Shown: piece by piece, positions 2,620 through 9,119 of the stretch
Layout of the letters: every line of letters starts with the position of its first letter
Position numbering within the stretch: position 1 is the first letter of the stretch
Virus record (IMG/VR): IMGVR_UViG_2563366942_000013
Direction: 5' to 3' (one strand)
Length of the DNA: 10,458 nucleotides
Source of the DNA: a virus
Taxonomy: Duplodnaviria > Heunggongvirae > Uroviricota > Caudoviricetes
Position numbers and translations under genes: made by a program
The notes under the pieces: model-generated
What the model was told of the DNA's origin: nothing
Databases searched by the model: none
The model's input: the letters and a program-made list of their open reading frames with translations, nothing else

Positions 2620-3210
2620 ATGTCTCGAATTTTTGCTTACTGTCGGATATCAACGCTGGATCAGACCACCGAAAATCAACGCCGGGAAATCGAAAGTGCA
2701 GGTTTTAAAATCAAACCTCAGCAAATAATCGAAGAACACATTAGCGGCTCAGCAGCAACCAGTGAGCGTCCTGGTTTTAACCGGTTGCTTGCTCGCCTGA
2801 AATGTGGTGATCAATTGATTGTGACAAAACTGGATCGCCTTGGTTGTAATGCAATGGATATCAGGAAAACAGTGGAACAACTGACCGAAACAGGTATCAG
2901 AGTGCATTGCTTAGCATTGGGGGGCATTGACCTGACCAGTCCAACAGGAAAAATGATGATGCAAGTAATTTCAGCAGTCGCTGAATTTGAACGAGACCTT
3001 TTACTTGAACGCACTCATTCCGGGATAGTAAGAGCCCGGGGCGCAGGGAAACGTTTTGGTCGACCACCTGTGTTAAATGAAGAACAGAAACAGGTGGTAT
3101 TCGAACGGATTAAGTCAGGTGTAAGTATAAGTGCCATTGCCCGGGAATTCAAAACCTCGCGGCAAACCATTTTAAGAGCCAAAGCAAAACTTCAGACACC
3201 TGACATATAA
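2620..3210 (+). CDS. pinQ: Serine recombinase / DNA invertase (Pin/Gin/Hin/Cin family)
   Basis: 196 aa; N-terminal resolvase/invertase catalytic motifs (YCRISTLDQ with active-site Ser, [10 protein letters not shown]) and C-terminal helix-turn-helix ([18 protein letters not shown]). Size and context match PinQ/PinR of Qin/Rac-type prophages. Confidence 0.9.
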
Positions 3211-3428: not shown

Positions 3429-3431
3429 CAC
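3429..3431. repeat. Target-site duplication (CAC), left copy
   Basis: CAC immediately outside both IS termini (3429-3431 and 4742-4744); 3-bp duplications are typical of IS3-family transposition. Confidence 0.6.
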
Positions 3432-3455
3432 TGAACCGCCCCGGGTTTCCTGGAG
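3432..3455. repeat. IS terminal inverted repeat (orfB-proximal end)
   Basis: TGAACCGCCCCGGGTTTCCTGGAG; partner at 4718-4741 in inverted orientation. Confidence 0.8.
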
Positions 3456-3473
3456 AGTATTTTATCTGTGAAC

Positions 3474-4364
3474 TCAGGCTGCCAGATCATCGTTTCCGAT
3501 GGAAGCATAATAAGCTTTTTCTGCTTCTGCCGGAGGAGTATGGCCCAGCCTTTCCAGCAATCGTCGATTGTTATACCAGTCCACCCACGTGAGTGTGGCC
3601 AGTTCCACTTCTGCACGGTTTTTCCAGCTCTTACGGTGTATTACCTCCGCTTTGTAAAGACCATTGATGCTCTCCGCCATCGCGTTGTCATACGAGTCGC
3701 CTGTACTTCCTGTTGATGCCAGTAATCCGGCTTCCTTAAGCCGCTGTGTGTAGGCCAGCGATACATACTGAGAACCTTTATCACTGTGATGGACCGTGCC
3801 GGACGGTCGACGGGCCCATAACGCCTGCTCCAGTGCATCCAGCACGAATGTCGTCTCCATGGACGATGAGACCCGCCACCCCACAATGTATCCGGCAAAC
3901 ACATCAATGATGAACGCCACATAGACGAAGCCCTGCCATGTGCTGACGTAAGTAAAATCAGCCACCCACAGCTGGTCAGGTCGTTCTGCCACGAACTGAC
4001 GGTTTACGCGGTCGCCTGCGGCAACGGCTTTCCGGCTGATGGTCGTACGGACCTTTTTACCCCGGAGAACACCGGCAAGTCCCATAACCGCCATGAGACG
4101 TGCCACAGTGCATCTGGCCACTCTGATACCTTCCCGTAACAACTGACGCCAGACTTTACGCACACCGTATACCTTGTGATTTTCATCGTATACGCGCTGT
4201 ATCTCTTTCTTCAGCCAGTCATCGCGCTGCGCACGGGCACTGCGTTTATCCGGATGATGTCGCTGTTGCTGACAGTGGTAATACGTTGACGGGGCAATAT
4301 GCAGTTCGCTGCATAGCGGTCCGACCCCGTACTGCTCACGCAGCTTATCCAGCAGTGGCATCAT
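3474..4364 (-). CDS. IS3-family transposase OrfB (DDE catalytic domain, 296 aa), normally expressed as OrfAB fusion by -1 frameshift
   Basis: DDE-type motifs (WVADFTYV..., [25 protein letters not shown]); ATG overlaps the orfA stop (ATGA) in the -1 frame. Confidence 0.9.
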
Positions 4365-4372
4365 TTTTTCCA
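4361..4372 (-). other. Putative programmed -1 ribosomal frameshift window (A6 run at orfA/orfB overlap)
   Basis: Minus strand reads TGG AAA AAA TGA with orfB ATG overlapping the stop; the A-run is a plausible slippery site by analogy with other IS3-family elements. Exact heptamer not verified. Confidence 0.45.
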
Positions 4373-4687
4373 GAGGCGGTCGAACTCCGCCTTCGCAAAA
4401 TAAGCGGAAGCCTGGCGAAGGATATCGTTACTGCGGCGCAGTTCACGATTTTCACGCTCCAGCTCTTTCAGACGCTGACGTTCAGCGGTGGTGAGCCCTC
4501 CATCACCGCCCCCGGTATCCCGCTCATGCTGGCGAACCCAGACACGCAGAGTCTCCGGCGTACAGCCAATCTTTGGAGCAATGGAACAAATTGTCGCCCA
4601 TTGTGAGTCATATTCGCCCTGACTTTCCAGAACCATACGGACTGCCCGTTGACGGACTTCAGGGGAAAAACGAGTATTTTTAGTCAT
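4361..4687 (-). CDS. IS3-family transposase OrfA (DNA-binding subunit, 108 aa)
   Basis: [53 protein letters not shown]... (HTH plus leucine-zipper-like region), recalled as characteristic of IS629/IS1203 OrfA. Confidence 0.9.
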
Positions 4688-4717
4688 CCTGTTTACCTCT
4701 TTCTCAGGAAGTTTAGT

Positions 4718-4741
4718 CTCCAGGATTCCCGGGGCGGTTCA
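4718..4741. repeat. IS terminal inverted repeat (orfA-proximal end)
   Basis: CTCCAGGATTCCCGGGGCGGTTCA, reverse complement of the 3432-3455 repeat with 2 mismatches. Confidence 0.8.
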
Positions 4742-4744
4742 CAC
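4742..4744. repeat. Target-site duplication (CAC), right copy
   Basis: See left copy. Confidence 0.6.
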
Positions 4745-4750
4745 CTTTTT

Positions 4751-5044
4751 TCACCCACGATTAACCAACAGCCAGACCAGCAGACACGCCACCACCGGCA
4801 CAGCAAAATCCATCAGGCTTGCCACATCCCACGCACGCGGATCAAAACCGCCCCACCACGGCATATTCATACGCTTGCCATGCCCGAACATTTCAATCCA
4901 GCGATATTCTGCCTGGGTATGTTCACGCGCAATGAAGAACGTACAACCAGCTATCGCCCCGTAAGCCCAGTTTCCGGTAAAAAGACCAACCAGTACCTGC
5001 GCAGCCACAGCACAAAGTGCATGAAGGAAAGGTGTTATATCCAT
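4751..5044 (-). CDS. Small integral membrane protein of unknown function (97 aa)
   Basis: Perfect Shine-Dalgarno AGGAGG 4 nt upstream of ATG (reverse complement of 5049-5054); two to three hydrophobic segments (FLHALCAVAAQVLVGLF, FAVPVVACLLVWLLV). Last gene of the tight minus-strand operon; stop is 6 bp from the IS target duplication. Confidence 0.55.
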   Translation of the reverse strand: MDITPFLHALCAVAAQVLVGLFTGNWAYGAIAGCTFFIAREHTQAEYRWIEMFGHGKRMNMPWWGGFDPRAWDVASLMDFAVPVVACLLVWLLVNRG

Positions 5045-5054
5045 TACGCCTCCT

Positions 5055-5759
5055 TTATCCGATATCGCTTCGGGAAACGGATAACAACTTTAATTCTGAC
5101 TCAAGTTCATCAACTCTTTCAGTCAGCTTCTGGATATGGTGAATCAGTGGAACAACCAGACGTTCGTACATTACACCTTCGGCAACAAGGCCATTGCTGG
5201 AAATGGTTTCCGGTGCATCATCTTCGTTGGCTGGTCGCCAGTGAACAAACTGAGGGGCAATTTCTCCAACTTCCTCGGCAATCAATCCATAGAATCCCCA
5301 GTCACGCCTGTCATTTTCGCATTGCGACCTGTACCACACAGGGCGCATCCTGAAAATGAGATCGGCGTGCTCTGAATCTATCGTCTCTACTGAATGTTTA
5401 TAGCGGATAGACGATGTTGACCGCAGCACAGACGAAATTGCAGGGTCAGGATTAAGATAAAGATTTGCCGCCGCTGTAGTTGTGCCCAATCCCCATAAAT
5501 AAAACGCTTCACGGCCAGTCAGCGGGTAAAAATCTCCGCCATAACGACCACTTTCCAGATCGTTCACTTCCACTTTGTTTTTCAGCTTATTATCAACTTC
5601 AGTTTTTGTGTATCTGGTGCTGATATCCTGCTTTGCACTGGCCATATCAGTCTGAAGCGTTGATACTTTTCCGTTAATAGAGGAAATATCTTCCTTTGCT
5701 TTACTGACATCTCCCTTCAGCGTGGTGATGTCTCCCGGAATTACTGTTGATGTAGCCAT
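5055..5759 (-). CDS. Short fibre-like protein: N-terminal coiled-coil region plus C-terminal peptidase-S74-type intramolecular chaperone domain (234 aa)
   Basis: GAGG Shine-Dalgarno 7 nt upstream. C-terminal half matches the S74 chaperone-domain pattern as recalled: S-S-I-R-Y-K-H-S-V (Ser116/Lys121 spacing like S-D-x-R-L-K-x-N-I), RPVWYRSQ, GFYGLIAEEVGEIAPQFV, VPLIHHIQKLTERVDELESEL. N-terminal heptad-like repeats (DITTLKGDVSKAKEDISSINGKVSTLQTDMASAKQDIS). Confidence 0.7.
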   Translation of the reverse strand: MATSTVIPGDITTLKGDVSKAKEDISSINGKVSTLQTDMASAKQDISTRYTKTEVDNKLKNKVEVNDLESGRYGGDFYPLTGREAFYLWGLGTTTAAANLYLNPDPAISSVLRSTSSIRYKHSVETIDSEHADLIFRMRPVWYRSQCENDRRDWGFYGLIAEEVGEIAPQFVHWRPANEDDAPETISSNGLVAEGVMYERLVVPLIHHIQKLTERVDELESELKLLSVSRSDIG

Positions 5760-5768
5760 TTCTCTACC

Positions 5769-6050
5769 TCACATCCAGCCACGAAGTTGATGCTCAACAG
5801 CAACCGCGTATTCATCGAATAATGACGATATTTGCGTATCCTTAATAATGCGCACGTTTACAAAATATCCATCTTCCTTAACACATACCGGTTCGCCATC
5901 TTCAGTCAGCTCTCCGGTTTCTTTGTACACGTTACCTATCACATCAATCAGAATATCATCCTGCATCGACTCGTCATTATAATAGCCAATACTTCCCATA
6001 AAGGCCGAAAAGTCGGCCCTGTCGGCAAATTTGAGTGTTAAATCTTTCAT
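5769..6050 (-). CDS. Hypothetical acidic protein (93 aa); possible fibre chaperone or accessory protein
   Basis: ATG overlaps the upstream stop (TAATG) indicating translational coupling; GGGGAG about 8 nt upstream. No recognisable motif; highly acidic. Confidence 0.5.
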   Translation of the reverse strand: MKDLTLKFADRADFSAFMGSIGYYNDESMQDDILIDVIGNVYKETGELTEDGEPVCVKEDGYFVNVRIIKDTQISSLFDEYAVAVEHQLRGWM

Positions 6051-6913
6051 TAGATTGACTCCCCCATCTGAGCATCAGTCAATGCCTTGTGCCAAATACG
6101 CAGATTTCGAACGTGTCCAAATAGGTGACGGTTGCCGGATGATGATTGACCACCAATATTAATGAAGCCTCCTGTATATTTGTGTTTTTTATAAGGAGAA
6201 ACTACCTTAGCACCAATATTACCGTTAACCACAACACACAATTCTCGACTTTCTGTGAATCTAAAGCCGATAATGCTTTTTCTCTCTGGTCGTTCTATAA
6301 CGCTTTTATATTCTATTTTAGTGCCTTTACCATTTGTAATGATTGCGCGTGCTCCCAAAGATGTATACCCCAAATACATATAACTTTCATCTGCAATTTC
6401 AGTTGTATCTCCCGTAGTGGAAATATTAAGAATACGTGCGCTACCTTCTTTGTTTGGCGATTCATCCCAATTGGTATTAACTTCTGCTAATGAACTAATA
6501 GCGGGATTGCACCAATTTAGAGAAATGGGGACCGTTACAATATCGCTGGCGCGTGTTACAGGGGATGCGCCTGTTATAATAAACGATGAAGCGCATGCCC
6601 CACCTTCAACTTGAGGGGTCGCAATATAAATATAATCATCCGCGCCAGTGCCCACTCCTTTTGCCGGGGCATACTGAACCATTCCACCTATCATATTTTC
6701 TGTATCAAGTGCCTTAATTGTCGCCTCAAAAAAGATCCATTTGCTTGCTTCATCTTTAACAGCCCTTGCAGTAATGCGATTAGCGGCACCACCCGTCTTA
6801 TCAATAGATAAATCTGTCGTATTTAAGTAAGCGTCACCTAAGAATGTGTAGGTAGAACCATCATAGTTTTCAAATCGTAATCGGCATCTTAAATTTGGAG
6901 TGCCACTTTGCAC
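6050..6913 (-). CDS. LamG/concanavalin-A-like lectin-domain protein; probably the distal receptor-binding part of the side tail fibre (287 codons, GTG-initiated as drawn)
   Basis: C-terminus shows LamG-type pattern (VVVNGNIGAKVV...GGFINIGGQSSSGNRHLFGHVRNLRIWHKALTDAQM). In the same frame as stf, separated by a single TGA (6941-6943) and 9 sense codons; no ATG and only a weak RBS at the GTG. Confidence 0.6.
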   Translation of the reverse strand: MQSGTPNLRCRLRFENYDGSTYTFLGDAYLNTTDLSIDKTGGAANRITARAVKDEASKWIFFEATIKALDTENMIGGMVQYAPAKGVGTGADDYIYIATPQVEGGACASSFIITGASPVTRASDIVTVPISLNWCNPAISSLAEVNTNWDESPNKEGSARILNISTTGDTTEIADESYMYLGYTSLGARAIITNGKGTKIEYKSVIERPERKSIIGFRFTESRELCVVVNGNIGAKVVSPYKKHKYTGGFINIGGQSSSGNRHLFGHVRNLRIWHKALTDAQMGESI

Positions 6914-6940
6914 CCTGCATGATATGGTTACATACTTTTC

Positions 6941-8455
6941 TCAGCCTGTTACATCAAAACCTTTACTGCCGGAAACGGTTACTATGTTAATCGCTGAAAT
7001 TTGCCCTACCATTTCTGGTTTTAATGTAAATTTTGCGTACTGGAATCCGAAATCATCTACACCTGATGCACTTAAGATCATATTTGACGACTTGTTCCAT
7101 TTAGTCGGATTTGTTGAATTGATTAGCAGGTTAGTTCTTTGCCCCTCAATAAGCAGGCCATCACGTTCAAATCGTGGCTCGTCAATGGCAGCCTCTGTCA
7201 GCACACCAGATTTATTAATGTAAGTTGCTTTCGATGCGCGTTTAAACTTTACAATCTTGTCGCCAGGCATTGTTATTTCATCGTCGCCAATAACAATTTT
7301 TTTATATGATGGCGAAAAGCCCGTAATCATATCCAGTGAATCATTAAACGGTATCCACACATCAGGCAGTGGCTGTAAGACATATTTATACGGCTCTGCT
7401 GCCTGACTTGCATACTCTCTGGCTGCGTCTTCACTTGCTTTAGCTGCTGTCTGGCTTGCTGCCGATGCTTTCGCCGAGTTCGCCGCTGCAGTCTCGCTTG
7501 TCTTTGCATTGGTTTCACTGGTTTTTGCTGCTTTTTGACTGTTGGCTGATGCAGTGGCAGAAGCAGCCGCCGCGCTTGCAGAACTGGCTGCGGCACTCTC
7601 GCTTTGGGCCGCTGCATCCTGACTGCTTTTCGCCGCAGTTTCACTGGCTTTGGCATTCGTTTCGCTGGTCTTCGCTGCCGTCTGGCTGGACTTTGCGTTA
7701 GTTTCACTCGTCTTCGCAGCTTTCTGGCTGTTAGCCGCAGCAGTTGCTGATCCAGCTGCTGAAGTCGCAGAACCGGCTGCCGCGCTCTCGCTTTGGGCTG
7801 CTGAAACCTGGCTGTTTTTTGCTGCAGTTTCACTGGCTTTAGCATTCGTTTCGCTGGTCTTCGCTGCCGTCTGGCTGGACTTTGCGTTGGTTTCGCTTGT
7901 CGTTGCGGCTGTCTCGCTATTTTTCGCGTTGGTTTCTGATTTTTTAGCTGCTGTTGCGGAGTTTGCCGATGCAGTCTGCGAGGCCGCTGCCGCCTGTGCG
8001 CTGTTAGCTGCATTCGTTTCTGAGGTTTTCGCCGCGTTCTTCGATGATGCCGCTGCAGTTTCGGATTTCTTTGCCGCCGCTGCGCTCTGAGAGGCGGCTT
8101 CAGCGTTGCGTGCCGCTTCTTCCACCATTTCCTCAAAACGACGCAATGCCTCCGGCATGACATCATCTTCCGTCATGGCACCGAGAAAATCATTCAGCGT
8201 ACCTGGTCTGGAACCTTCATAGACGGTAATGGTTCCGGCATGTGAAGGCGGAAAACCTTCAACCAGCAGGGTGACGCTGTACTGGCCATACTCAACATCC
8301 ATGCTGTAACGCCCGGCTTCATCCGGATTTTCAGAGGCCACTGTGTTGACCAGTACCGTGGTGCTGTTACGCTTTGCCTTCAGTTGAATAGTGCAGTTCT
8401 GTATTGGTTTTCCCGCACCATCTTTCAGCACACCTGAGATTTTTACTGCTGCCAT
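6941..8455 (-). CDS. stf: Side tail fibre protein Stf (lambda-like N-terminus, Ser/Ala/Thr-rich repeat region, distinct distal segment)
   Basis: MAAVKISGVLKDGAGKPIQNCTIQLKAKRNSTTVLVNTVASENPDEAGRYSMDVEYGQYSV... closely resembles the lambda/Rac Stf N-terminus as recalled. GGAG Shine-Dalgarno 5 nt upstream of ATG at 8455 (track start at GTG 8461 is probably an over-extension). Ends at TGA 6941-6943. Confidence 0.85.
   Translation of the reverse strand: MAAVKISGVLKDGAGKPIQNCTIQLKAKRNSTTVLVNTVASENPDEAGRYSMDVEYGQYSVTLLVEGFPPSHAGTITVYEGSRPGTLNDFLGAMTEDDVMPEALRRFEEMVEEAARNAEAASQSAAAAKKSETAAASSKNAAKTSETNAANSAQAAAASQTASANSATAAKKSETNAKNSETAATTSETNAKSSQTAAKTSETNAKASETAAKNSQVSAAQSESAAAGSATSAAGSATAAANSQKAAKTSETNAKSSQTAAKTSETNAKASETAAKSSQDAAAQSESAAASSASAAAASATASANSQKAAKTSETNAKTSETAAANSAKASAASQTAAKASEDAAREYASQAAEPYKYVLQPLPDVWIPFNDSLDMITGFSPSYKKIVIGDDEITMPGDKIVKFKRASKATYINKSGVLTEAAIDEPRFERDGLLIEGQRTNLLINSTNPTKWNKSSNMILSASGVDDFGFQYAKFTLKPEMVGQISAINIVTVSGSKGFDVTG
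7596..7973. repeat. Imperfect tandem direct repeats inside stf (189-bp spacing, about 115-bp conserved core, nested 42-bp/14-aa sub-repeats)
   Basis: CTCTCGCTTTGGGC... recurs at 7596 and 7785; protein shows repeated AAKTSETNAKxSxT units. More degenerate copies extend to about 7440-8060. Confidence 0.6.
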
Positions 8456-8463
8456 ATCCACTC

Positions 8464-8519: not shown

Positions 8520-9119
8520 TCAGAATTTATAACCGACACCAACGATGAAACCGTCAGTGCGCCAGTCACCACTGCCAGAACCTTCATAAGCAATATCAAT
8601 GGCCACGGATTCGGTCGGGTTAAACTGCACGCCAGCCCCCCACGCCAGAGACGTGTTGCTGTGGCGATCGTCATCACTTCCGGTCAGCACATCGTGCGTT
8701 TTCCCCTTGTTGTCAGTTACGCGGAGATAATCCCCGGAGAACGTCGAAACACGGCTGTAAGCCACACCTGCCATCGCATAAGCACTGAACCATTCATTCA
8801 CGCGTACAGATGGCCCCGCCATCATGCTGAACCAGCGGTTACGCACTGAATCTTCATGCCAGCGGGTATCGCTGTAATGCGTTTTTTGCTCACCTTTGGC
8901 ATTGGCATAACTGAATGACGTCACCAGCCCCAGCGTGTCCGTAAATTCATAACGGTATTTCACGTTAATGCCCTTCAGGTCATCACTGCCTGGCATATCA
9001 GTATGGGTTTGAAGATACCCGGCGCTTAGTGTGGACTGATGCTCTGCTGCGCTCGCTGACGTACCAGCAGCAACCAGCCAGACTACTGCGGACAGAATAA
9101 CAGCACATAATTTACGCAT
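8520..9119 (-). CDS. lom: Lom/Ail/PagC-family outer-membrane protein (prophage moron)
   Basis: 199 aa with signal peptide (MRKLCAVILSAVVWLVAAGTSASA) and C-terminus DIAYEGSGSGDWRTDGFIVGVGYKF matching lambda Lom as recalled; GAGAGG RBS upstream; location between J and stf as in lambda. Confidence 0.9.
   Translation of the reverse strand: MRKLCAVILSAVVWLVAAGTSASAAEHQSTLSAGYLQTHTDMPGSDDLKGINVKYRYEFTDTLGLVTSFSYANAKGEQKTHYSDTRWHEDSVRNRWFSMMAGPSVRVNEWFSAYAMAGVAYSRVSTFSGDYLRVTDNKGKTHDVLTGSDDDRHSNTSLAWGAGVQFNPTESVAIDIAYEGSGSGDWRTDGFIVGVGYKF

What the first reader, a model, noticed from the sequence alone, without database searches (positions are those of the whole stretch)
4751..5044. Small membrane protein at the 3-prime end of the fibre module
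A 97-aa protein with two to three transmembrane segments and a strong AGGAGG RBS sits at the end of the tail-fibre operon. Small membrane proteins adjacent to receptor-binding genes are sometimes superinfection-exclusion or receptor-masking factors; the function here is unknown and I do not recognise the sequence.
Basis: inference. Interest (0 to 1): 0.4.

Follow-up and report, generated by a model that had tools for sequence, protein, structure and literature searches.

The report
Conserved small membrane gene behind phage fibres
This is a real and very common prophage gene for a 97-residue inner-membrane protein of unknown function that, across many unrelated phages, sits directly behind the gene for the host-recognition fibre or spike; its conserved part probably faces the cell interior, so it is unlikely to mask a surface receptor.

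Summary
The ORF is real: minus strand 4751-5044, 97 aa, AGGAGG 4 nt before the ATG, three confident helices, median dN/dS 0.18. It is a full-length member of PHROG 1443 (unknown function). It has no Pfam, NCBIfam, PADLOC, PDB or fold match, and no paper was found. It is very common, present in 1,924 of 5,426 complete E. coli genomes and in phage 21.

In 148 of 155 phage-derived loci it directly follows, on the same strand, a receptor-binding gene or that gene's small companion. The partners include S74 fibres, pectate-lyase tailspikes, P22-type tailspikes and lectin-type Stf. The phages are lambda-like, P22-like, P2/HP1-like and phage-plasmids. Nearly identical copies follow different partners.

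Homologues also sit in ordinary chromosomal neighbourhoods in Aeromonas and Sphingomonadaceae, so the family is cellular and phages have captured it.

Conservation is concentrated in H8, R40-E41, Q44-A45-E46, R58, W72, D79 and P83. The positive-inside rule places this block on the cytoplasmic side.

Verdict: an accessory, host-directed inner-membrane protein that travels with receptor-binding cassettes. Direct receptor masking is disfavoured. Superinfection exclusion by another route remains untested. The biochemical function is unknown.

The parts
4751..5044 (-). Target gene: 97-aa three-helix inner-membrane protein, member of PHROG 1443 (the family that includes phage 21 gp24)
   Evidence: ORF list and translation; phrog_1443 match 1-96 of 97, E=3.5e-59; 97% identical to phage 21 CPT_21_24; AF2 pLDDT 91.6; dN/dS 0.18
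5049..5054 (-). Shine-Dalgarno AGGAGG, 4 nt before the ATG, overlapping the TAA stop (5055-5057) of the upstream gene
   Evidence: Read directly from the sequence
5055..5759 (-). 234-aa short fibre protein with a C-terminal Peptidase_S74 intramolecular-chaperone domain; the immediate upstream partner
   Evidence: Pfam PF13884 E=4.7e-6; phrog_3299 positions 1147-1384 of 1385. The same pairing occurs in 80 loci
5769..6050 (-). 93-aa acidic protein (phrog_1361, unknown function). In phage 21 and PhiR41_1 its homologue lies directly between Stf and the target family gene
6050..8461 (-). Side tail fibre stf (phage_tail_N ... Laminin_G_3-like C-terminus), split by an in-frame TGA at 6941-6943
   Evidence: Pfam and PHROG: phrog_1419 positions 1-503 and 516-793; in-frame stop; RefSeq note 'internal stop' in the equivalent locus
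3432..4741 (-). IS3-family insertion of 1,310 bp (the IS629/IS1203 size) with orfA 4361-4687 and orfB 3474-4364; 3-bp target duplication at 3429-3431 and 4742-4744; inserted 6-9 bp beyond the target gene's stop codon
   Evidence: Pfam HTH_Tnp_1 and rve; breakpoints from alignment to the IS-free locus L002
3308..3418 (-). Remnant of a tail-fibre assembly gene (tfa, C-terminal part only). Before the IS insertion this was the next feature after the target gene
   Evidence: RefSeq annotation of L002 4880-4990, mapped with an offset of 1572
2620..3210 (+). pinQ-type serine invertase, a relic of an invertible fibre segment
   Evidence: Pfam Resolvase + HTH_7; annotated pinQ in L002

Best explanation
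The gene encodes an accessory, non-structural inner-membrane protein of about 97 aa. It belongs to a large, strongly conserved, uncharacterised family found in Proteobacteria and their phages.

The protein is a three-helix bundle, predicted N-in and C-out, with TM1 and TM2 forming a tight hairpin. Each helix has one conserved face: H8-A12-Q16-G20-G24; G29-F37-E41-A45 with R40-Q44-R48; and D79-P83. By inference, H8, R40/E41 and D79 lie at the same depth, near the cytoplasmic surface of the membrane. They sit next to an invariant, Trp-rich cytoplasmic loop (R58..MPWWGGFD..W72). This looks like a ligand, ion or catalytic site that works from the cytoplasmic leaflet on a conserved host membrane component.

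Phages captured the gene from cellular genomes and carry it as a passenger at the 3' end of receptor-binding-protein cassettes. It is either translationally coupled to the fibre gene (lambdoid and P2/HP1-like phages) or forms its own unit at the tailspike-integrase conversion locus (P22-like phages).

My most likely functional reading is that it changes the envelope physiology of the infected or lysogenic cell in a way that pays off for phages with glycan-directed fibres. Examples would be acting on lipid-carrier-linked surface-glycan supply, or otherwise making the cell refractory to related phages. It does not do this by masking a receptor.

Shown: the gene is real, the family is conserved, the RBP linkage holds, cellular homologues exist, and no known domain matches. 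Inferred: the topology, the clustering of the conserved residues, the target, and any phage-resistance phenotype.
For: The gene is real and under purifying selection.

RBP linkage. Of 155 phage-derived loci, 90 have an S74-bearing fibre protein upstream, 32 another ORF of at least 500 aa, and 20 the 92-aa companion of a lectin-type Stf. For 46 non-redundant upstream ORFs, Pfam gives Peptidase_S74 13, Pect-lyase 11, Tail_spike_N 8, Head_binding 2, GDSL 2, and K1-lyase, Phage_tail_fib and Laminin_G_3 1 each. The same arrangement occurs in Leclercia and Aeromonas P2/HP1-like prophages with overlapping stop and start codons, in a Chelativorans prophage, next to DGR bAvd genes, and in phage 21, Gally and PhiR41_1.

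Independence from RBP type. Copies 98-99% identical to the window follow different partners.

Cellular homologues. Aeromonas species share the syntenic order Pirin -> gene <- RIO1-like kinase, LpxL/M. In Sphingomonadaceae the gene lies next to ligA and other housekeeping genes.

Site-like conservation. Family-wide, at 90% or more: H8, G29, R40, E41, Q44, A45, E46, Y47, R48, I50, R58, P62, W72, D79, P83.

Topology. K+R averages 5.7 on the N-tail plus loop side against 0.7 on the other side. The AF2 three-helix model has pLDDT 91.6.

Not a holin. Complete holin-holin-endolysin-spanin cassettes lie downstream in one phage group.

Conversion-locus architecture in Gally: a terminator, then a promoter-like site, before the gene.
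Against: There are no functional data of any kind and no homology to a characterised protein. No paper was found.

The topology rests on a heuristic. The phage 21 record quotes TMHMM as '2 TMDs, N-in, C-in', which would put the loop in the periplasm.

No sigma-70 promoter was found upstream on the gene's strand in the window, phage 21 or L002. Expression in lysogens is therefore unproven, and a late lytic role is possible.

Copies are intact in the large Aeromonas phages AVP1 and 62AhydR11PP, which I take to be non-temperate. Copies are decayed in the HC6 group and in KFSST3. These two observations give conflicting hints about whether the function is tied to lysogeny.

The link to glycan-directed RBPs could simply reflect the base rate of such RBPs, and the fact that RBP 3' ends are recombination and moron hot spots.

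The loci are redundant, and ORFs were called naively.
Confidence: 0.4

Rival explanations
1. It is an inner-membrane superinfection-exclusion protein that blocks genome entry, working like T4 Imm, P22 SieA or HK97 gp15. From the cytoplasmic membrane it would prevent incoming phage DNA, or the ejection and tape-measure proteins, from crossing. It would be expressed from the prophage or early after infection.
For: The protein is a small polytopic inner-membrane protein. It is linked to RBP cassettes and, in P22-like Gally, sits at the tailspike-int conversion locus with its own terminator and promoter-like signals. It is retained intact in a decaying cryptic prophage whose stf is broken. It occurs in 35% of complete E. 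coli genomes, often in several copies.
Against: It has no similarity to any known Sie protein and no PADLOC hit. Almost nothing is exposed to the periplasm under the favoured topology. Syntenic chromosomal homologues lie in non-phage contexts. Deep invariance of a polar cluster is unusual for a factor that targets variable phage proteins. No promoter was detected in the lambdoid contexts.
Confidence: 0.2
2. It is a host-benefit moron with a housekeeping-type activity, such as ion or metal handling or membrane-lipid homeostasis, unrelated to phage resistance. Its position behind RBP genes would reflect only the fact that this is a permissive cargo and recombination site.
For: The family is cellular and its chromosomal neighbours vary. 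The His/Glu/Asp cluster resembles a metal or ion site. Downstream neighbours in phages are highly variable: sitABCD, UmuD-like, lysis genes, int, tail genes. The same protein follows different RBPs.
Against: The coupling to the RBP gene is very tight, including overlapping stop and start codons in the middle of P2/HP1-like tail operons. This recurs across at least five phage architectures and is more than expected for random cargo. Remnants in the virulent phages HC6 and KFSST3 show the gene moves together with the RBP 3' end.
Confidence: 0.2
3. It has a late lytic function tied to the fibre or spike. Examples would be membrane-associated help for RBP maturation or virion assembly, protection of progeny from re-adsorption, or fine-tuning of lysis.
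For: No promoter or terminator separates it from the fibre genes, and the SD overlaps the upstream stop codon. It lies in the middle of the late tail operon in P2/HP1-like prophages. Intact copies exist in the large Aeromonas phages. It lies between the RBP and the lysis cassette in one phage group.
Against: The same protein serves unrelated RBP folds. S74 fibres carry their own chaperone domain. Separate holins are present. Cellular homologues have no phage partner. The copy has decayed in two virulent lineages whose upstream RBP ORFs are uninterrupted. In Gally it is separated from the tailspike by a terminator.
Confidence: 0.12
4. It is a receptor-masking envelope lipoprotein in the manner of T5 Llp or phi80/N15 Cor. 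Residues 31-34 (IAGC) resemble a lipobox, and the phage 21 record quotes a 29-aa signal sequence from SignalP.
For: A lipobox-like IAGC sits at residues 31-34. The phage 21 annotation carries the SignalP note. The gene is adjacent to RBP genes.
Against: The N-terminus is acidic (MD...) and has no positively charged n-region. C34 is invariant only among close relatives and falls below 80% family-wide. AF2 models residues 4-53 as a confident helical hairpin. A third hydrophobic helix at 74-96 would be odd for a lipoprotein. There is no receptor-specific co-variation.
Confidence: 0.03

Closest known systems
PHROG 1443 / phage 21 gp24 (CPT_21_24, 'putative membrane protein'; RefSeq WP_000355609.1 'hypothetical protein')
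   Same: Same family. Full-length profile match (E=3.5e-59) and 97% identity to the phage 21 protein. Same position at the end of the side-tail-fibre block.
   Different: Nothing is different, but the family has no assigned function, no Pfam or NCBIfam model and no literature.
RBP-linked superinfection-exclusion lipoproteins: T5 Llp and phi80/N15/T1 Cor (from my own knowledge of the literature)
   Same: They are small envelope proteins encoded next to the receptor-binding gene, and they move with it.
   Different: Those proteins are periplasm- or outer-membrane-directed lipoproteins specific for one receptor (FhuA). This one is a polytopic inner-membrane protein whose conserved loop is predicted to be cytoplasmic. 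It shows no receptor-specific co-variation and has cellular homologues.
Inner-membrane exclusion proteins: T4 Imm, P22 SieA, HK97 gp15 (from my own knowledge)
   Same: They are small inner-membrane proteins encoded by phages as non-structural cargo.
   Different: There is no sequence or profile similarity. This family is deeply conserved across Proteobacteria and also sits in non-phage chromosomal loci.
Lysogenic-conversion loci between tailspike and integrase in P22-like phages (gtrABC, oac; from my own knowledge)
   Same: In the P22-like phage Gally the homologue occupies exactly this slot, after a terminator and before int.
   Different: It is a single gene of about 95 aa. It gives no GtrA or acyltransferase match and has no gtrB/gtrC partners.
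Lambda late-region morons lom and bor (from my own knowledge)
   Same: They are non-structural envelope-protein genes embedded in the late and tail region of lambdoid phages. lom is present in this same window at 8520-9119.
   Different: lom and bor encode outer-membrane proteins with their own promoters. Here no promoter was detected, and the gene is coupled to the fibre genes.

Membership tests
PHROG 1443 (uncharacterised phage protein family) | Full-length match to the family profile | tested here: met
   phrog_1443, residues 1-96 against profile positions 1-96 of 97, E=3.5e-59, 198 bits
PHROG 1443 (uncharacterised phage protein family) | Family core residues present (H8, R40, E41, Q44, A45, E46, R58, P62, W72, D79, P83) | tested here: met
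   All are present in the window protein. They are conserved at 90% or more across 364 sequences
Receptor-masking lipoproteins (Llp / Cor type) | Lipoprotein signal peptide with a basic n-region and a conserved lipobox cysteine | tested here: not met
   A lipobox-like IAGC exists at 31-34, but the N-terminus is acidic, C34 is below 80% conserved family-wide, and residues 4-53 are modelled as a helical hairpin
Receptor-masking lipoproteins (Llp / Cor type) | Specificity that tracks the receptor-binding protein | tested here: not met
   Copies 98-99% identical follow S74 fibre proteins, the 92-aa/Stf arrangement and other partners
Receptor-masking lipoproteins (Llp / Cor type) | Blocks adsorption or the receptor when expressed | not testable with these tools
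   Needs expression and adsorption assays
Inner-membrane superinfection-exclusion proteins (Imm / SieA / gp15 type) | Sequence or profile similarity to a known member | tested here: not met
   The only PHROG hits are two families of unknown function. No Pfam, NCBIfam or PADLOC hit
Inner-membrane superinfection-exclusion proteins (Imm / SieA / gp15 type) | Expressed in the lysogen, and blocks DNA entry without affecting adsorption | not testable with these tools
   The promoter scans are only suggestive: none in lambdoid contexts, one promoter-like site in Gally
Holins | Encoded in the lysis cassette next to the endolysin, as the only membrane-lesion factor | tested here: not met
   The gene lies behind RBP genes. 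Where a lysis cassette follows, it already has two holins, an endolysin and a spanin. Cellular homologues lie outside phages
Tail-fibre assembly chaperones (Tfa / gp38 type) | Soluble protein matched to the fibre C-terminus; Caudo_TAP-type domain | tested here: not met
   The protein is an integral membrane protein with no Pfam hit. The same protein follows unrelated RBP folds, and S74 fibres carry an intramolecular chaperone
GtrA-type / O-antigen conversion proteins | GtrA-like domain with gtrB and gtrC partners, or an acyltransferase domain | tested here: not met
   No Pfam hit at E<=0.01 for the window protein, or at E<=1 for ten distant members. No such neighbours were seen
Prolipoprotein diacylglyceryl transferase (Lgt; label on one UniRef entry) | LGT domain, a multi-pass protein of about 290 aa (size from my own knowledge) | tested here: not met
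   The label appears on one cluster member only. No LGT Pfam match. Family members are 60-146 aa

The most novel reading that the evidence does not exclude
The family is a previously unrecognised class of tiny inner-membrane enzymes or regulators. They would have been captured repeatedly from cellular genomes and hard-wired to the 3' end of receptor-binding cassettes. From the cytoplasmic leaflet they would act on a universal step of envelope-glycan or lipid-carrier metabolism. A phage that swaps its glycan-directed fibre would then automatically carry a generic device that makes its own host refractory, or protects its progeny. That would be a receptor-independent form of exclusion linked to host-range modules.
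Probability: 0.15. Interest if true: 0.7.

Novelty: new member of a known kind. Interest (0 to 1): 0.45.

Why it matters
The gene is in about a third of complete E. coli genomes, often in several copies. It is also in the classical phage 21 and in many lambda-like, P22-like, P2-like and phage-plasmid genomes. Yet it has no name, no domain model and no literature.

Its near-obligate position behind the host-recognition gene is notable. So is a site-like invariant motif shared from E. coli phages to Sphingomonas chromosomes. Together these make it a tractable candidate for a new host-range-linked accessory function. It also matters to anyone who engineers or swaps phage tail fibres, because the gene is likely to be carried along with the cassette.

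If it has no phage-related phenotype, it is still a widespread uncharacterised bacterial membrane-protein family that deserves a domain entry.

Tried and rejected
1. Curated family searches gave nothing. I tried Pfam, NCBIfam and PADLOC on the window protein, and Pfam at E<=1 on ten distant members.
2. A PDB sequence-profile search gave only one chance-level hit.
4. Literature searches found nothing relevant. I searched by accession, family identifiers and keywords, and read one lysogeny-transcriptomics paper.
5. I considered that the gene is specifically tied to Peptidase_S74 fibres. This was suggested. I rejected it as a rule, because the Gally tailspike, the phage 21 Stf and many pectate-lyase or GDSL spikes lack S74.
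6. I considered that it is a holin, and rejected this.
7. I considered that it is a lipoprotein, and rejected this.
8. I considered the 'Lgt' label on one UniRef entry, and found it unsupported.
9. I considered that the gene decays in non-temperate phages, so that the function would be specific to lysogeny. This is only partly true. There are remnants in the HC6 group and in KFSST3, but copies are intact in Aeromonas AVP1 and 62AhydR11PP.
10. A viral scan seeded with the most distant subgroup failed, because no stretch was conserved enough.
11. Cluster-member names were all 'hypothetical'.

Full report
**Setting**

The window is the tail end of a decaying lambdoid prophage at the E. coli ydfJ-ydfK-pinQ (Qin) site. 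On the minus strand it carries, in order:
- the C-terminal part of the presumed host-specificity gene J;
- lom (Ail_Lom, E=6e-126);
- a side tail fibre stf with a phage_tail_N domain;
- a 93-aa gene (phrog_1361);
- a 234-aa fibre protein that ends in a Peptidase_S74 intramolecular-chaperone domain;
- the 97-aa ORF of the finding.

An IS3-family element follows, then pinQ, ydfK and ydfJ. I compared the window with an IS-free copy of the locus in strain MS 21-1. The insert spans 3432-4741 (1,310 bp) with a 3-bp target duplication, and it begins 6-9 bp after the stop codon of the 97-aa gene. In the undisturbed locus the next features are a tfa remnant and pinQ.

The ORF is at 4751-5044 on the minus strand. 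AGGAGG lies at 5049-5054, 4 nt before the ATG, and overlaps the TAA stop of the upstream gene. Hydropathy and an AlphaFold2 model built on 32 homologues (pLDDT 91.6, pTM 0.78) give three helices: 4-23, 26-53 and 74-96.

It is a genuine gene:
- It matches PHROG 1443 end to end (E=3.5e-59).
- It has 583 homologous clusters at 90% identity and 429 representatives at 50% identity. All of the 150 best are stand-alone proteins of about 60-146 aa.
- The median pairwise dN/dS is 0.18 over 2,233 pairs.

It is also very common. It occurs in 1,924 of 5,426 complete E. coli genomes, with a median of two copies and up to seven, and it is always annotated 'hypothetical protein'. It is 97% identical to gp24 of the classical phage 21, annotated 'putative membrane protein'.

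**Nothing known matches it**

- Pfam, NCBIfam and PADLOC give no hit, even for ten distant members at E<=1.
- A PDB sequence-profile search gives only one chance-level hit.
- No paper in the searchable library mentions the family.
- Public sources call every sampled member 'hypothetical'. The one exception is a single UniRef 'Lgt' label that no profile search supports.

**Conservation pattern**

Among relatives 55-97% identical, 27 columns are invariant. They include D2, H8, Q16, C34, the block R40-E41-(H42)-T43-Q44-A45-E46-Y47-R48-W49-I50, then G56, R58, M61-P62, W64-G65-G66-F67-D68, W72, D79 and P83.

Across 364 family members the residues kept at 90% or more are H8, G29, R40, E41, Q44, A45, E46, Y47, R48, I50, R58, P62, W72, D79 and P83. 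The conserved positions fall on one face of each helix (8-12-16-20-24; 29-37-41-45 and 40-44-48; 79-83), while the other transmembrane positions vary freely.

K+R averages 5.7 in the N-tail plus the 34-residue loop, against 0.7 in the TM1-TM2 turn plus the C-tail. By the positive-inside rule the protein is N-in and C-out, with the conserved loop in the cytoplasm. Only about five residues would be exposed to the periplasm. On that topology H8, R40/E41 and D79 lie about one helical turn in from the cytoplasmic surface. This is an inference, not a measurement. The phage 21 record quotes a TMHMM prediction (2 TMDs, N-in, C-in) that would place the loop outside.

**Genomic company in phages**

The constant neighbour is a receptor-binding gene immediately upstream on the same strand.

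| Phage or prophage | Gene order |
|---|---|
| Phage 21 and phage-plasmid PhiR41_1 | Stf (Laminin_G_3 C-terminus), 92-aa gene, family gene |
| P22-like phage Gally | tailspike, terminator, promoter-like site, family gene, integrase (the classical conversion slot) |
| P2/HP1-like prophages of Aeromonas media and Leclercia | Phage_tail_fib + S74 fibre, family gene with overlapping stop and start, in the middle of the tail operon |

Over 155 phage-derived loci, the upstream same-strand ORF ending within about 120 nt falls into these classes:

| Upstream neighbour | Loci |
|---|---|
| S74-bearing fibre protein | 90 |
| Another ORF of 500 aa or more | 32 |
| The 92-aa companion of a lectin-type Stf | 20 |
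| Something else | 6 |
| None found | 7 |

For 46 non-redundant upstream ORFs, Pfam gives Peptidase_S74 in 13, pectate-lyase beta-helix in 11, Tail_spike_N in 8, P22 Head_binding in 2 and GDSL esterase in 2. K1 lyase, Phage_tail_fib and Laminin_G_3 each occur once. These are mostly glycan-directed fibres and spikes.

The link also appears in a Leclercia prophage (Tail_spike_N), in a Chelativorans prophage (Laminin_G_3), and next to DGR bAvd genes in Comamonas and Pigmentiphaga.

Downstream neighbours vary: sitABCD, integrase, a UmuD-like gene, tail genes, or a complete holin-holin-endolysin-spanin cassette. The last case rules out a holin role.

Copies 98-99% identical to the window follow different partners, so the protein does not co-vary with the receptor-binding domain.

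**Genomic company in cells**

The family is not confined to phages. In several Aeromonas species it sits in a syntenic, phage-free neighbourhood: Pirin, then the gene, convergent with a RIO1-like kinase and two lipid A acyltransferase genes. In Sphingomonadaceae and other Alphaproteobacteria it lies beside ligA, ftsZ, PPIase, cyclopropane-fatty-acid synthase and other housekeeping genes. The protein therefore has a cell-autonomous activity, and phages have picked it up.

**Lifestyle hints conflict**

Unannotated, decayed remnants lie right behind RBP genes in two virulent lineages: the HC6 group after an S74 fibre, and Kuttervirus KFSST3 after a tailspike-cluster gene. This suggests the gene is dragged along with RBP cassettes and can be dispensable in a lytic lifestyle.

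Against that, the copies in the 234-kb Aeromonas phage AVP1 and in 62AhydR11PP are intact and keep the core residues.

In the lambdoid contexts no sigma-70-like promoter on the gene's strand and no terminator was found. That fits read-through from the fibre genes. In Gally the gene looks autonomous.

**Interpretation**

The predicted topology, the lack of co-variation with the RBP, the site-like invariance and the cellular homologues all argue against it.

The best-supported reading has three parts:
- The gene encodes an accessory, host-directed inner-membrane protein.
- Its conserved site faces the cytoplasm.
- It is carried as a passenger of receptor-binding cassettes.

What it acts on is unknown. 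I favour an envelope-level effect that benefits phages with glycan-directed fibres, but with low confidence in the specific target.

The live rivals are entry-blocking superinfection exclusion, a phage-unrelated housekeeping moron, and a late fibre- or lysis-associated role. A lipoprotein mask is very unlikely.

**Limits**

- The loci are redundant.
- ORFs were called naively, which is noisy in high-GC genomes.
- The promoter scan is a simple consensus match.
- The topology rests on a heuristic and a monomer model.
- No expression or phenotype data exist.

Noticed in passing
window 6941-6943 (minus strand): The side tail fibre gene stf is split by an in-frame TGA (...DVTG*EKYV...) into 506-aa and 287-aa ORFs. 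Together these match phrog_1419 positions 1-503 and 516-793. RefSeq flags the same 'internal stop' in strain MS 21-1. It is probably a nonsense mutation in a cryptic prophage; read-through was not examined.
   Followed up: partly
window 3432-4741; duplications at 3429-3431 and 4742-4744: A 1,310-bp IS3-family element (orfA 108 aa, orfB 296 aa; the length fits IS629/IS1203) is inserted with a 3-bp target duplication between the 97-aa gene and a tfa remnant. It separates the fibre block from pinQ.
   Followed up: yes
window 5769-6050 (minus strand): This 93-aa acidic, apparently soluble protein (phrog_1361, unknown function) has no Pfam hit. Its 92-aa homologue sits directly between a Laminin_G_3-type Stf and the family gene in phage 21, in PhiR41_1 and in 20 viral loci. 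It could be a fibre-specific helper.
   Followed up: partly
window 5055-5759 (minus strand): This stand-alone 234-aa 'mini-fibre' has an N-terminal 32 aa that matches the N-termini of fibre PHROGs, then a coiled-coil-like stretch, then a Peptidase_S74 domain. It equals the last ~240 positions of the 1,385-position phrog_3299 profile. Variants of 227 and 346 aa occupy the same slot in other E. coli prophages.
   Followed up: partly
window 7484-7918 (minus-strand stf): There are internal direct repeats of about 246 bp at about 82% identity inside stf. They correspond to the Ala/Ser/Thr/Lys-rich KTSETNAKSSQTAAK-type repeats of the fibre shaft.
   Followed up: no
L006 4965-5120 (phage HC6 and relatives); L240 6001-6156 (Salmonella phage KFSST3): Unannotated, decayed remnants of the family gene lie immediately after RBP genes in virulent phages. 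They look like footprints of RBP-cassette acquisition from temperate phages.
   Followed up: partly
L121 and L123 (Comamonas nitrativorans, Pigmentiphaga humi), about 5947-6691: The family gene lies between a ~370-383-aa ORF with no Pfam hit and a bAvd-like gene. It therefore appears to sit inside a diversity-generating-retroelement cassette, next to the presumed variable target gene.
   Followed up: no
L009, L097, L099, L101, L104 (Aeromonas chromosomes): The chromosomal homologue is syntenic across several Aeromonas species. It is convergent with a RIO1-like kinase gene and two lipid A acyltransferase (LpxL/M-type) genes. This may hint at an envelope-lipid connection, or it may be coincidence.
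   Followed up: no
L001 7386-10835 (phage 21): In phage 21 the family gene is followed, convergently, by a sitABCD manganese/iron transporter moron. Given the His/Glu/Asp cluster of the family protein this caught my eye, but nothing links the two.
   Followed up: no
cluster of P0077 (member P0275): One UniRef entry labels a 102-aa Aeromonas family member 'Prolipoprotein diacylglyceryl transferase'. No profile search supports this, and it looks like an annotation error.
   Followed up: yes
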